The notes beneath the pieces were generated by a model. The model was not told where the DNA came from. It saw nothing but the letters and a program-made list of their open reading frames with translations, and made no database searches. The position numbers and the translations under genes are program-made. From a phage, in sequence record OR846210.1: a stretch of 1,197 nt of DNA; one strand, written 5' to 3'. This document shows, in pieces, positions 1 to 1,197 of the stretch. Position 1 is the stretch's first letter; each line of letters opens with the position of its first letter.

Positions 1-181
1 CGATTAATCTATAATCCAGTTTTTTTCTGTTTTTTTGAACCATAGATATACATCTCATTTGCCAGACGCTACCAAAATAAAAAATTAAGACGGCGATTGT
101 TATTGGCCTGCATAAGTAATCGATATAATAAAAATTCATTACTGCGAATAATCTCATGTCGCCAGTATTTCCGTAATCCAT
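1..181 (-). CDS. speculative small hydrophobic protein, N-terminal part; frame continues beyond window start
   Basis: The minus-strand frame is stop-free from position 259 to position 2, where the window ends (86 codons), despite ~29% GC. First ATG at 181..179 gives MDYGNTGDMRLFAVMNFYYIDYLCRPITIAVLIFYFGSVWQMRCISMVQKNRKKLDYRLI..., with a transmembrane-like stretch followed by basic residues. The only Shine-Dalgarno-like element (AAGGA) is too close to the ATG (1-nt spacer). Y/F/I/N/K-rich composition is also what chance translation of AT-rich DNA gives. Confidence 0.2.
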   Translation of the reverse strand, partial: MDYGNTGDMRLFAVMNFYYIDYLCRPITIAVLIFYFGSVWQMRCISMVQKNRKKLDYRLI

Positions 182-402
182 TTCCTTTTTTAGATATGGA
201 AAATAATAAGCAATGTAAGAGTTTGATTTTTTCTTCCTCCAATGAAGAAAGCTAGATTGTTAAATAAATGTTATTATCGTGGGGGGTTCACGTATCAATT
301 GGTAAAAATACTATAAGATGGTTTTTTATAATACTTCATTTGCTATGCAAACTGAACATTTGATGCTAAAAAATAATAAAGGGTATTACTTTAATTCAAC
401 AC
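1..402. other. AT-rich (~29% GC) segment with phased A/T tracts; probable intergenic or horizontally acquired DNA
   Basis: Hand count gives 117 G+C in positions 1-400. Homopolymeric T7 runs at 20-26 and 30-36, A-rich tracts at 74-85 and 366-380, and several TATAAT-like hexamers. Composition changes abruptly at ~400-430, exactly at the 3' end of the coding block. Confidence 0.5.
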
Positions 403-423
403 CGCCGGGCTTTATACCCGGCG
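403..423 (-). terminator. candidate intrinsic terminator hairpin downstream of the 151-aa gene
   Basis: Perfect inverted repeat cgccggg (403-409) / cccggcg (417-423) with a 7-nt loop (ctttata), 7 nt beyond the TGA stop on the minus strand. The following minus-strand sequence is AU-rich (GUGUUGAAUUAAAGUAAUACCCUUUAUUAUUUUUU), but the U-run is displaced ~20 nt from the stem, so this is not a textbook terminator. Confidence 0.4.
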
Positions 424-429
424 AGAGAT

Positions 430-885
430 TCAACAATCGTATTGCCAGCTACTAACTAAGGCATAAAGGTGGCTGGGGGAGTAGCGCCAGCTATCGTTTA
501 GTCCGAGAAATTCAGCGCAAAACTCGCTGCAAAACAGTTTATCTTTGCGCTCCCGGTTATACAGCGCGATACCGAGCGCGCCCTGCCAGTCATAGCGTTT
601 GCCGTTATGTTTGCGGAAAAAGGCCTCCACTTCCGGCAACGTGGCCTTTAACGGTAGCTTATCCCACTTATCGTCCGGTAACGGTATTATCTTTCCCCGC
701 ACGCCGCGATCGCGAAACGATGCAGAGTAGCAGAGGTATTCATTACCGCCGTGCGCCACCGCCAGTTCACAGTGAGAGTAGATACCGCGCGTGACTTTGC
801 GCGTGAGCCAGTCGGCAAACCTGGCGATGCCGCGATACTCCGATCGCCCCTTATAGCAAGCGAGCCAGACGGTGGTTTGACTCAT
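430..885 (-). CDS. hypothetical Cys/His-rich protein, 151 aa; possible circularly permuted papain-fold (NlpC/P60-superfamily, YaeF/YiiX/LRAT-like) hydrolase
   Basis: Complete ORF from ATG (885..883) to TGA (432..430) with enterobacterial-type codon usage (ccg, ctg, gcg, cgc frequent). Start overlaps the upstream stop as ATGA. No N-terminal hydrophobic signal sequence; net positive charge by my count. Functional guess rests on His38 in YSHCELAVAHGG and Cys119 in FCSEFCAEF, which resemble the His-then-Cys order of permuted NlpC/P60 enzymes. This is motif recollection only. Confidence 0.75.
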   Translation of the reverse strand: MSQTTVWLACYKGRSEYRGIARFADWLTRKVTRGIYSHCELAVAHGGNEYLCYSASFRDRGVRGKIIPLPDDKWDKLPLKATLPEVEAFFRKHNGKRYDWQGALGIALYNRERKDKLFCSEFCAEFLGLNDSWRYSPSHLYALVSSWQYDC

Positions 886-1197
886 GGCTGCCAGCCTGAT
901 GAATAGTCGTAGTCGAGCACTTCCTGGATATCCCCCAGCGCTTCTACCGCCGCAATATGCCGCTGCGCGTTGGCAAACAGGCGCATATCGTGATCCATAG
1001 TGACGGTTTCAAACTGCGCGGCGATGTCGTTGGTCAGTTTAATCAAACCGTTATTTTTGGTCTGCCACATTAACCCTGCCGGAATCTGCTTTGCCTGACC
1101 CATTCTGGTGAGTGACATTTGCTGAATACGGCTGTTAGCATCGCTGTGGAAATGGTTGCCGTCGATAACGATATAATCGGTGGTAACGGTGTCGCGG
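882..1197 (-). CDS. hypothetical protein, 5'-truncated by the window edge (C-terminal ~105 codons visible); function unknown
   Basis: The track ORF 882..1118 (78 aa) starts at an ATG with no purine-rich Shine-Dalgarno in the preceding ~20 nt (minus-strand upstream reads gctaacagccgtattcagcaa). The same frame stays open to position 1196 with no stop, reading ...RDTVTTDYIVIDGNHFHSDANSRIQQ before MSLTRMGQ... Codons there are typical enterobacterial preferred codons (acc, gtt, atc, gac, ggc, aac, ttc, cac, agc, cgt, cag). The stop TGA (884..882) overlaps the next gene's ATG (885..883). Confidence 0.6.
   Translation of the reverse strand, partial: RDTVTTDYIVIDGNHFHSDANSRIQQMSLTRMGQAKQIPAGLMWQTKNNGLIKLTNDIAAQFETVTMDHDMRLFANAQRHIAAVEALGDIQEVLDYDYSSGWQP

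What the first reader, a model, noticed from the sequence alone, without database searches (positions are those of the whole stretch)
430..885. 151-aa Cys/His-rich protein with a possible permuted papain-like catalytic signature
The protein has His38 in a strand-like context (GIYSHCELAVAHGGNEY) and, about 80 residues later, Cys119 at the start of a helix-like motif (LFCSEFCAEFLG). A catalytic His N-terminal to a Cys followed by Ser and a hydrophobic helix is the arrangement of circularly permuted NlpC/P60-superfamily enzymes (YaeF/YiiX, LRAT-like). Additional Cys at positions 10, 39, 52, 122 and 151 could instead form a metal site. Small papain-fold enzymes on accessory DNA often act as amidases, deamidases or acyltransferases, so the target would be interesting.
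Basis: partly seen in the sequence, partly recalled or inferred. Interest (0 to 1): 0.6.

Follow-up and report, generated by a model that had tools for sequence, protein, structure and literature searches.

The report
Phage YiiX-like permuted cysteine hydrolase

Summary
The ORF exists at window 430-885, on the minus strand, and encodes 151 aa. It corresponds to STM4198 of a Salmonella Mu/P2-like prophage remnant. The extra cysteine is Cys123, not Cys122.

- **Sequence:** profile comparisons link the family to YiiX/C92 through Alteromonas phage V22 gp28.
- **Catalytic residues:** across 122 diverse homologues the only invariant columns are His38, Tyr98 and Cys119, which match the His, oxyanion Tyr and Cys of YiiX.
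- **Other cysteines:** they are not conserved, so a metal site is unlikely.
- **Difference from YiiX:** the canonical third-residue Glu is missing. An invariant Glu40 at His+2 may replace it.

No Pfam or NCBIfam model reaches threshold. The label "enoyl-CoA hydratase" has no support. In 67 of 78 viral loci the gene abuts the upstream gene on the same strand, with a 4-nt ATGA overlap in 50; 51 of the 60 upstream proteins scanned match the tail-protein family phrog_2837, whose DUF4376 domain marks tested tail-fibre chaperones. The chemistry is well supported. The biological target is unknown.

The parts
430..885 (-). Complete 151-aa ORF (stop codon at 430-432) encoding a stand-alone permuted NlpC/P60 (YiiX-like) cysteine enzyme; equivalent to STM4198
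   Evidence: ORF list; annotation of the 97.6% identical S. Infantis locus; fold matches; purifying selection, dN/dS 0.07-0.10
772..774 (-). Codon of His38, the predicted general base (motif Y-S-H-C-E at the start of a beta-strand)
   Evidence: 99% conserved and invariant in A4; aligns with the catalytic His of 3kw0 and YiiX; catalytic residues of those enzymes taken from PMC3142127
766..768 (-). Codon of Glu40 (His+2), a family-specific acid and a candidate replacement for the missing canonical third residue
   Evidence: 98% conserved. Glu at His+2 goes with no Glu on the next strand in 194 sequences; Gly at His+2 goes with a Glu on the next strand in 26 sequences. The catalytic role is inferred, not shown
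592..594 (-). Codon of Tyr98 (motif G-K-x-Y-D), equivalent to the oxyanion-hole Tyr115 of YiiX
   Evidence: Invariant; the GKxYD motif aligns with GKPYD of YiiX; the role of the Tyr is taken from PMC3142127
529..531 (-). Codon of Cys119, the predicted nucleophile (motif F-C-S-E at the N-terminus of a helix)
   Evidence: 98% conserved and invariant in A4; aligns with the CSE motif of 3kw0, YiiX and YaeF; helix 119-126 in the model
882..885 (-). ATGA overlap: the start codon of the enzyme gene overlaps the stop codon of the upstream tail-fibre chaperone gene, which implies translational coupling
   Evidence: ORF coordinates 882..1118 and 430..885; the same 4-nt overlap occurs in 50 of 78 related viral loci
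882..1197 (-). 3' part of the upstream gene (STM4199 equivalent): the C-terminal part, aligning with the DUF4376-bearing end of tail protein / tail-fibre assembly chaperones
   Evidence: Translation; phrog_1807 at E 1e-38 and phrog_2837 at E 5e-30; DUF4376 found in the upstream proteins of related loci; DUF4376 proteins are experimentally tested fibre chaperones
404..422 (-). 7-bp G+C hairpin 8 nt after the stop codon, at the boundary between late-operon DNA (GC 0.54) and AT-rich DNA (GC 0.31). It may mark the end of the operon, but it has no T-run
   Evidence: RNA fold of window 380-435, which also contains a second stem, -20.2 kcal/mol, z -3.6; no canonical terminator found; composition

Best explanation
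The ORF encodes a small, single-domain, signal-peptide-less cysteine enzyme with the circularly permuted NlpC/P60 (papain-like) fold. It belongs to a large phage-borne sister group of the YaeF/YiiX (MEROPS C92) family.

**Chemistry (inferred by homology).** Cys119 sits at the N-terminus of a helix and acts as the nucleophile. His38, on the neighbouring strand, activates it. Tyr98 stabilises the oxyanion. The reaction goes through a thioester acyl-enzyme that is resolved by water (hydrolase) or by an acceptor (acyltransferase). The canonical Glu that orients the His in YiiX is absent. Glu40 (His+2), or Ser54/Ser56, probably takes that role.

**Substrate (inferred).** Characterised permuted relatives act on fatty-acyl linkages, so the likeliest substrate is an acyl amide or ester: a lipid, lipoprotein, lipopolysaccharide or acylated protein.

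**Expression and biological role.** The gene is the last cistron of the phage late (tail) operon. It is translationally coupled to the DUF4376 tail-fibre chaperone gene, so the protein is made late in infection together with the fibre and chaperone. I think it is most likely an accessory enzyme of the host-recognition module. It could act on the fibre-chaperone complex or on the acylated envelope molecules the fibre meets. This last step is conjecture.
For: **Fold**
- The AF2 model has pLDDT 81.6 and pTM 0.81.
- Foldseek's top four hits are the 3kw0 chains.
- BFVD hits include a protein named 'Permuted papain-like amidase, YaeF/YiiX, C92'.

**Sequence**
- The profile hits 3kw0 at E 9e-5 with both motifs aligned.
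- Against YiiX the YSH, GKxYD and CSE motifs align. Against YaeF, E is 3.6e-5.
- Against V22 gp28-like proteins the probability is 96.7% and E 4e-10. That group matches YiiX at 94% probability and E 1e-7, and many of its members carry PF05708.

**Catalytic residues**
- His38, Tyr98 and Cys119 are the only invariant columns in 122 diverse sequences.
- They map onto Cys128/His49/Tyr115 of YiiX as defined in PMC3142127.
- dN/dS is 0.07-0.10.

**Lipid bias of permuted relatives**
- A fatty acid is bound in YiiX.
- Tox-Act1 and TseH have phospholipase activity.

**Operon context**
- The ATGA overlap is present in the window.
- 67 of 78 IMG/VR loci have a same-strand upstream ORF with a gap of 5 nt or less, and 50 have the exact 4-nt overlap.
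- The upstream proteins match phrog_2837 in 51 of 60 cases, DUF4376 in 36 of 60 and Caudo_TAP in 10 of 60.
- The same pairing occurs in Haemophilus SuMu, Moraxella Mcat7, a phage contig encoding an SU10-type adaptor protein, and Alteromonas V22.
- The ORF's GC content (0.54) matches the upstream tail gene (0.52), not the AT-rich DNA downstream (0.31).
Against: - No Pfam or NCBIfam model reaches threshold. Only 1 of 32 members touches PF05708, at E 0.073.
- The canonical Glu of YiiX maps to Ser54 or Ala55.
- I could not measure active-site geometry.
- There is no biochemical or genetic data for any member.
- The fibre of V22 folds and binds host cells when co-expressed with the chaperone alone, without gp28. 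Phage A5 has the same fibre module but shares no gp28 homologue. The enzyme is therefore not needed for fibre folding.
- In Ralstonia phage RP12 the gene stands alone on the opposite strand from its neighbours.
- Co-variation with the chaperone's C-terminal half can be explained by physical linkage alone.
Confidence: 0.78

Rival explanations
1. A lysogenic-conversion 'moron': a cargo gene expressed from the prophage that remodels the host envelope, for example by deacylating or acylating lipid A, lipoprotein or phospholipid. Its benefit would be superinfection exclusion or host fitness, with no role in the virion or in fibre assembly.
For: - The gene is the very last one before variable DNA.
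- In this prophage remnant it lies next to an AT-rich acetyltransferase gene, and gtrABC sits in the same tail block.
- In RP12 it is a lone gene on the opposite strand.
- It is dispensable for fibre function in V22 and absent from A5.
- Permuted NlpC/P60 enzymes act on lipids.
Against: - The 4-nt ATGA overlap with the chaperone gene occurs in 50 of 78 loci, and no promoter-like site lies upstream.
- GC content equals that of the late operon.
- The gene is also present in V22 and in the Ralstonia RP12-type jumbo phages; that these are strictly lytic is my own reading, not a tool result.
- The protein has no signal peptide, so it could only reach cytoplasmic or inner-leaflet substrates.
Confidence: 0.15
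2. A cell-wall or lysis accessory enzyme. Like canonical NlpC/P60 endopeptidases, it would cut peptidoglycan stem peptides or the Lpp-peptidoglycan link, helping lysis or DNA injection.
For: [quoted passage not shown]
- In Pseudomonas phage pAN and metagenomic locus L087 the gene lies just upstream of lysis genes, respectively a 'lysis protein' and a faint GH108 match.
Against: - No signal peptide, SAR or transmembrane segment is visible in the sequence or the model, and there is no cell-wall-binding domain.
- All ~270 homologues retrieved are single-domain proteins, nearly all of 130-200 aa (longest 232).
- The closest structures, YiiX and 3kw0, have a narrow hydrophobic S1 pocket unsuited to peptides.
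- Proximity to lysis genes is expected for any last gene of a structural operon.
Confidence: 0.06
3. A cysteine-ligated metal-binding protein (a zinc or iron site built from Cys10/39/52/123/151), with the His/Cys pattern being coincidental.
For: - The window protein has six cysteines.
- The PDB title of 2if6 calls YiiX a 'metalloprotein'.
- A few weak Pfam hits (E > 0.02) to Cys-rich families appear among members.
Against: - Cys10, 39, 52, 123 and 151 are conserved at only 6, 73, 76, 61 and 3%. Cys39 is often Val and Cys123 is often Val or Ile.
- The fold is alpha/beta papain-like, not a zinc ribbon.
- The ions in 2if6 were remodelled as calcium.
Confidence: 0.02
4. An enoyl-CoA hydratase / carnitine racemase-like metabolic enzyme, as labelled in PHROG 1128 and in several NCBI records.
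For: The label appears in phrog_1128, in SuMu gp51, Pasteurella phage Pm86 and Ralstonia RP12, and in Pasteurellaceae genome records.
Against: - There is no hit to any crotonase-family Pfam model, even at E <= 10.
- At 151 aa the protein is shorter than the roughly 250 aa I recall for crotonase domains (my own knowledge, not checked here).
- The fold search returns only papain-like structures.
- The label traces back to 'similar to' notes in H. parasuis records, so it is a propagated annotation.
Confidence: 0.01

Closest known systems
YaeF/YiiX family (Pfam PF05708 Peptidase_C92): E. coli YiiX (PDB 2if6) and B. cereus BcPPNE (PDB 3kw0)
   Same: - Same order and sequence context of the S-H, G-K-x-Y-D and C-S-E motifs.
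- The same three residues (His, Tyr, Cys) are invariant.
   Different: - The protein is 151 aa, against 202 aa for YiiX and the 189-197-residue 3kw0 chains, and it has no signal peptide.
- It fails the PF05708 threshold.
- The Glu at His+15 is replaced by Ser or Ala, and a Glu appears at His+2.
- It carries its own invariant motifs: S-x-S-x-R-D-x-G-V-R-x-K and W74.
- It is phage-borne and tied to the tail-fibre chaperone gene.
Alteromonas myovirus V22 gp28 ('permuted papain-like amidase') and its relatives
   Same: - A small stand-alone protein (136 aa) encoded immediately after the DUF4376 fibre chaperone gp27, with a 1-nt overlap.
- Homologous to the window family (probability 96.7%, E 4e-10).
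- No function has been tested for it either.
   Different: - It keeps the YiiX-type arrangement: Gly at His+2 and Glu on the next strand.
- The Cys motif is C-[FY]-E rather than C-S-E.
- Many members reach PF05708.
- Identity to the window protein is only about 15-19%.
T6SS effectors TseH (PDB 6v98) and Tox-Act1
   Same: - Phospholipase activity has been demonstrated, which supports an acyl-linkage chemistry for the clade.
   Different: - They are secreted toxins that act in the periplasm and come with immunity proteins.
- The window protein has no secretion signal, no conserved immunity-like neighbour and no PADLOC hit.
- The structural similarity is much weaker than to YiiX.
LRAT / PLAAT (H-rev107) acyltransferases and picornavirus 2A H-box/NC proteins
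   Same: - They use a thioester acyl-enzyme mechanism (my own knowledge of the family).
   Different: - The Cys motif is C-S-E, not N-C-E-H-F.
- There is no second His as third residue and no C-terminal membrane anchor.
- The similarity is far lower than to YiiX.
Phage lambda tail assembly protein K (from memory; not tested here)
   Same: A phage tail-module protein that carries an NlpC/P60-type cysteine peptidase domain. It is a precedent for papain-like enzymes in tail gene clusters.
   Different: The lambda K domain has the canonical Cys-before-His order and is fused to an MPN/JAB domain. It sits among tail-tip genes, not after the fibre chaperone.

Membership tests
Permuted NlpC/P60 superfamily (PPNE sensu Xu et al. 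2011) | Papain-like alpha/beta core with circular permutation: the catalytic His precedes the catalytic Cys in sequence | tested here: met
   [not shown]
Permuted NlpC/P60 superfamily (PPNE sensu Xu et al. 2011) | Cys at the N-terminus of a helix, His at the start of a beta-strand, and the two juxtaposed in 3D | tested here: inconclusive
   The secondary-structure positions are met: strand 38-46 and helix 119-126.
YaeF/YiiX family (PF05708, MEROPS C92) | Score at or above the Pfam gathering threshold (27 bits) for PF05708 | tested here: not met
   The window protein gives no PF05708 hit at E <= 10. One of 32 homologues hits at E 0.073. Controls: YiiX 167.8 bits, YaeF 44.6 bits, V22 gp28 19.8 bits
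YaeF/YiiX family (PF05708, MEROPS C92) | Conserved catalytic Cys, His and oxyanion Tyr (YiiX Cys128, His49, Tyr115) | tested here: met
   Cys119, His38 and Tyr98 align to them and are the only invariant columns in A4
YaeF/YiiX family (PF05708, MEROPS C92) | Acidic third residue (Glu64) on the strand after the His strand | tested here: not met
   The equivalent position is Ser54 or Ala55. Position 55 is Ser 79% / Ala 21% and position 54 is Ser 91%. None of the 194 sequences with Glu at His+2 has the x-E-[AS] motif
YaeF/YiiX family (PF05708, MEROPS C92) | Hydrophobic S1 tunnel that binds a fatty acyl chain | not testable with these tools
   This needs coordinates or biochemistry. The feature is described for YiiX in PMC3142127
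LRAT / H-rev107 family | N-C-E-H-F Cys motif, a His-His-Cys triad and a C-terminal membrane anchor | tested here: not met
   [not shown]
Canonical NlpC/P60 (PF00877) peptidoglycan endopeptidases | Cys N-terminal to His; PF00877 match | tested here: not met
   The order is His before Cys, and there is no PF00877 hit
Enoyl-CoA hydratase / crotonase superfamily (the database label) | Crotonase-fold domain (my recollection: Pfam ECH families, about 250 aa) | tested here: not met
   No such Pfam hit at E <= 10. The fold is papain-like. The protein is 151 aa
Cys-ligated metal-binding proteins (zinc ribbon and similar) | A conserved set of 3-4 ligand Cys/His residues | tested here: not met
   Only Cys119 is conserved above 90%; the others are at 3-76%
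Known anti-phage defence proteins (PADLOC) | Match to a PADLOC model | tested here: not met
   0 families at E <= 1

The most novel reading that the evidence does not exclude
The enzyme is a previously unrecognised catalytic component of phage host recognition. It would be made in step with the DUF4376 chaperone and would dock on the chaperone's conserved C-terminal domain, which in Mu-type phages stays on the fibre tip. From there it would do one of two things. It could acylate, deacylate or clip the fibre-chaperone complex, for example to release the 'chaperone cap'. Or it could ride on the virion and remodel acylated receptor molecules (lipid A, lipoproteins) at the cell surface. The swap of the catalytic acid from the neighbouring strand to His+2 would then mark a new active-site variant of the papain fold.
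Probability: 0.15. Interest if true: 0.8.

Novelty: new variant of a known kind. Interest (0 to 1): 0.5.

Why it matters
This is a very large phage protein family. At least 3,880 clusters at 50% identity match it, and more than 560 loci were found in one viral collection. It has no Pfam or NCBIfam model, and PHROGs and GenBank give it a wrong metabolic name.

Assigning it to the permuted NlpC/P60 (YiiX-type) enzymes corrects that annotation. It also gives four residues to mutate: Cys119, His38, Tyr98 and Glu40.

The near-constant translational coupling to the tail-fibre chaperone raises a concrete, testable question: why do many phages of Gram-negative bacteria add an enzyme whose characterised relatives act on fatty-acyl linkages to the host-recognition module? 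The answer could matter for engineering receptor-binding proteins, where only the fibre and chaperone are usually transplanted. It could also help explain the still unknown function of bacterial YiiX and YaeF.

Tried and rejected
- **Direct family searches.** Pfam, NCBIfam and PADLOC scans of the protein gave nothing useful. A single-sequence search of the PDB gave only a chance hit at E 0.98.
- **Unavailable library.** The afdb50 fold library was not available, so I used BFVD instead.
- **Active-site geometry.** I could not measure the His38-Cys119 distance or test Glu40, because model coordinates are not exposed.
- **Virion proteomics.** The SuMu proteomics paper never mentions gp51. The V22 paper reports no virion proteome. 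So there is no evidence for or against virion association.
- **True C92 proteins in phages.** A tblastn of YiiX against the phage collection found a single unannotated record and gave no context information.
- **Domain fusions.** I looked for fusions as 'Rosetta stone' hints to the target. Essentially every homologue is a stand-alone protein of 130-200 aa. The few longer ones look like mis-called starts or frameshifts.
- **Terminator.** No canonical intrinsic terminator follows the gene; there is only a hairpin without a T-run.
- **Co-variation with the chaperone.** The enzyme travels with the chaperone's C-terminal 100 residues (mean 91% identity when the enzymes are at least 90% identical). 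The chaperone's N-terminal 90 residues are mosaic (47%). I do not count this as evidence of interaction, because adjacency alone explains it.
- **Rejected readings.** The metal-site idea and the enoyl-CoA hydratase label are both rejected (see the rival explanations).
Full report
**1. The observation**

The window contains a 151-codon ORF at 430..885 on the minus strand (ATG at 885-883, stop at 432-430). His38 and Cys119 are correctly numbered. There are only four histidines.

The gene is real and under selection.
- 39 homologues were found, with E-values down to 1e-100.
- A family profile matches 3,880 clusters at 50% identity with E <= 1e-3, and 1,654 with E <= 1e-10.
- dN/dS is 0.07-0.10 against orthologues whose synonymous sites are close to saturation.

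**2. Where it sits**

The window is 100% identical to a 6-kb unannotated record called 'Salmonella phage S.Kent 1-2-1'. It is 97.6% identical to the S. Infantis SARB27 chromosome. In that chromosome the ORF is annotated as a hypothetical protein equivalent to STM4198 of strain LT2.

It is the last gene of a Mu/P2-like tail block. In transcription order the block reads: tape measure, gpU, X, D and V homologues, an inserted gtrABC cassette, then W, J and I homologues, the tail fibre (STM4200), STM4199 and finally STM4198. A microarray study treated STM4198-4217/4218 as a putative phage-related cluster that varies between serovars.

The ORF's start codon overlaps the stop codon of the upstream gene by four bases, ATGA at 882-885. 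The ORF's GC content is 0.54, close to the 0.52 of the upstream gene. The DNA downstream has a GC content of 0.31. No sigma-70-like promoter is found upstream of the ORF and no canonical terminator follows it. A 7-bp G+C hairpin lies 8 nt after the stop codon.

**3. What the protein is**

Direct scans find no Pfam or NCBIfam family. PHROGs places it in phrog_1128 (E 2.6e-60), labelled 'enoyl-CoA hydratase/carnithine racemase-like'. Nothing else supports that label. There is no crotonase hit at E <= 10 for the protein or for 31 homologues. The name can be traced to 'similar to' notes in Haemophilus records.

An alignment of 32 homologues (A1) has these invariant residues: Tyr11, Thr32, Tyr36-Ser-His38-Cys-Glu40, Ser56, Asp59, Gly61-Val-Arg63, Lys65, Trp74, Tyr98-Asp99, Gly102, Cys119-Ser-Glu121, Pro137 and Leu140.

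The A1 profile hits one solved structure above noise. This is 3kw0, the B. cereus YiiX-family 'cysteine peptidase', at E 9e-5. Two aligned stretches cover the S-H motif and the C-S-E-F motif.

An AlphaFold2 model built on A1 has mean pLDDT 81.6 and pTM 0.81. In it His38 is the first residue of strand 38-46 and Cys119 is the first residue of helix 119-126.
- **Foldseek against the PDB:** the top four hits are the four chains of 3kw0 (probability 1.00). Aichivirus 2A is the next papain-like hit.
- **BFVD:** the hits are uncharacterised caudoviral proteins, plus one named 'Permuted papain-like amidase enzyme, YaeF/YiiX, C92 family'.

**4. Homology chain to the C92 family**

- Profile against single sequences gives YiiX at E 0.0046, with YSH, GKxYD and CSE all in register. 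It gives YaeF at E 3.6e-5 over the Tyr-Cys half.
- The literature search turned up Alteromonas myovirus V22. Its CDS-28 was annotated 'permuted papain-like amidase' and lies immediately after the DUF4376 fibre chaperone gp27.
- V22 gp28 scores 19.8 bits (E 9e-4) against PF05708, below the gathering threshold of 27. Many of its close relatives carry a precomputed PF05708 hit.
- Profile-profile comparison of the window family with the V22-like group gives probability 96.7% and E 4e-10.
- The V22-like group against YiiX gives probability 94.2% and E 1e-7.

The window protein therefore belongs to a sister group of the YaeF/YiiX family. It is connected to that family by an intermediate phage clade.

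**5. Active site**

Xu et al. 2011 (PMC3142127) define the catalytic residues of this family. In 3kw0 they are Cys154, His49, Glu64 and Tyr127. In YiiX they are Cys128, His49, Glu64 and Tyr115. Those authors also found a fatty acid in the hydrophobic S1 tunnel of YiiX. They proposed an amidase acting on a fatty acyl-peptide bond, or a related acyl-transfer reaction.

In the alignments above, His38 maps to the His, Cys119 to the Cys, and Tyr98 (in G-K-x-Y-D) to the Tyr. In a 122-sequence alignment spanning both phage subfamilies, the only invariant columns are His38, Tyr98 and Cys119.

The canonical Glu is not conserved. It maps to Ala55 in the HMMER alignment or to Ser54 in the hhalign alignment. 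Those positions are Ser 79% / Ala 21% and Ser 91% respectively. The family instead has a 98%-conserved Glu40 two residues after the His. YiiX, 3kw0 and the V22 group have Gly at that position.

A crude motif count over the 268 proteins retrieved gives this split.

| Residue at His+2 | Glu on the next strand | Sequences |
|---|---|---|
| Glu | absent | 194 |
| Gly | present | 26 |

Only 2 sequences have both. I read this as a possible relocation of the His-orienting acid. It is a single phylogenetic event and has not been checked in 3D, so it remains a hypothesis. PPPDE1 is a precedent: it lacks the canonical third residue and uses a Glu-held water instead.

The other cysteines are poorly conserved: Cys10 6%, Cys39 73%, Cys52 76%, Cys123 61% and Cys151 3%. 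This removes the metal-site alternative.

**6. Conserved genomic coupling**

A scan of IMG/VR found more than 561 loci encoding relatives, and the best 80 were kept.
- I located the gene in 78 of them. In 67 the nearest upstream ORF is on the same strand with a gap of 5 nt or less. In 50 the overlap is exactly the 4-nt ATGA.
- Of 60 distinct upstream proteins, 51 match phrog_2837 ('tail protein'), 36 match Pfam DUF4376 and 10 match Caudo_TAP.
- DUF4376 is described as the conserved C-terminal domain of Mu-type tail-fibre assembly proteins. Co-expression experiments show that proteins carrying it act as fibre chaperones in Alteromonas phages and a Campylobacter prophage.

The same pairing occurs outside the close relatives.
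- Haemophilus Mu-like phage SuMu, gp50/gp51.
- Moraxella phage Mcat7.
- A metagenomic phage contig that encodes an SU10-type adaptor protein, where the enzyme is 41% identical and again overlaps by 4 nt.
- Alteromonas V22.

There are exceptions. Ralstonia jumbo phage RP12 has a lone gene on the opposite strand. Pseudomonas phage pAN and locus L087 have upstream proteins that are not recognisably DUF4376, with lysis genes downstream.

Downstream neighbours vary widely. The enzyme is therefore the terminal cistron of the tail operon. No homologue carries a fused domain.

**7. What it most likely does**

- **Supported by fold, motif and conservation evidence:** it is a catalytically competent Cys-His-Tyr enzyme of the permuted NlpC/P60 type. 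The protein itself has not been assayed.
- **Inferred from characterised relatives:** the reaction passes through a thioester acyl-enzyme, and the substrate carries a fatty-acyl amide or ester. [quoted passage not shown]
- **Shown by sequence:** it is co-translated with the fibre chaperone from the late operon.
- **From inspection of the sequence:** it has no export signal.
- **Conjecture:** its biological target belongs to the host-recognition process, either the fibre-chaperone complex or acylated envelope molecules.

Some evidence argues against an essential assembly role. The V22 fibre becomes functional in E. coli with gp27 alone. Phage A5 shares the fibre module but has no gp28 homologue. 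The enzyme is therefore an accessory.

The main rival is a lysogenic-conversion or envelope-remodelling cargo gene. The position at the operon end, next to gtr and acetyltransferase genes, favours that reading. The ATGA coupling and the matching GC content count against it. So does the gene's presence in V22 and in the Ralstonia jumbo phages, which I take to be strictly lytic; no tool result here states that.

**8. Comparison with the known, and novelty**

The kind of enzyme is known: permuted papain-like NlpC/P60, YiiX-like. One relative, V22 gp28, has already been given that name in passing. No member has been studied.

What is new:
- A very large phage family without a Pfam or NCBIfam model, widely mislabelled 'enoyl-CoA hydratase', is assigned to this fold.
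- Its active site differs: the canonical Glu is lost and a Glu is gained at His+2.
- It is near-constantly coupled, at the level of translation, to the DUF4376 tail-fibre chaperone.

I rate it a new variant of a known kind, of moderate interest. The open and interesting part is the target.

Noticed in passing
window 1-113, minus strand (amber codons at 69-71 and 9-11): This is the 5' end of an AT-rich (GC 0.31) hexapeptide-repeat acetyltransferase gene. The gene is intact (158 aa) in S. Infantis SARB27. In the window two Trp codons (Trp15 and Trp35) are replaced by in-frame TAG, so it is a pseudogene in this strain.
   Followed up: partly
window 382-422, minus strand: Two adjacent hairpins (a 7-bp G+C stem at 404-422, then a second stem at 382-403) start 8 nt after the stop codon of the 151-aa ORF. 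Together they fold at -20.2 kcal/mol (z -3.6). There is no T-run. They sit exactly at the break in GC content from 0.54 to 0.31. They could mark the end of the operon or the junction with acquired DNA.
   Followed up: partly
L001 17302-20137 (S. Infantis SARB27; STM4204-4206 equivalents): An O-antigen glucosylation cassette (GtrA-like protein, bactoprenol glucosyl transferase, a membrane protein) is inserted inside the baseplate/tail gene block of the same prophage remnant, between the gpV-like and gp25-like genes.
   Followed up: no
L002 (OR850896.1, 'Salmonella phage S.Kent 1-2-1', 6,035 bp): This record is flagged UNVERIFIED_ORG, is unannotated, and is 100% identical to the window. It looks like a fragment of the chromosomal prophage remnant (tail-fibre end plus flanking AT-rich DNA) rather than an independent phage genome.
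   Followed up: partly
P0011, P0013, P0016, P0020, P0023-P0025, P0028 (84-103 aa): Many database entries are truncated versions of the protein, 69-99% identical over about half its length. Several come from Salmonella and Enterobacter genomes. The gene may be decaying in some prophage remnants, although in the window it is intact. Some of these entries may instead be contig-end fragments.
   Followed up: no
IMG/VR loci L007-L086, upstream gene: The fibre chaperone is mosaic. When the enzymes are at least 90% identical, the chaperone's C-terminal 100 residues average 91% identity but its N-terminal 90 residues average only 47%. A recombination boundary therefore lies inside the chaperone gene, and the DUF4376 half and the enzyme gene travel together as a unit.
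   Followed up: partly
phrog_1128 and NCBI records (SuMu gp51, Pasteurella phage Pm86, Ralstonia RP12 ORF176, Pasteurellaceae genomes): The annotation 'enoyl-CoA hydratase/carnithine racemase-like', misspelling included, has spread through phage and bacterial records for this family. No profile or fold evidence supports it.
   Followed up: yes
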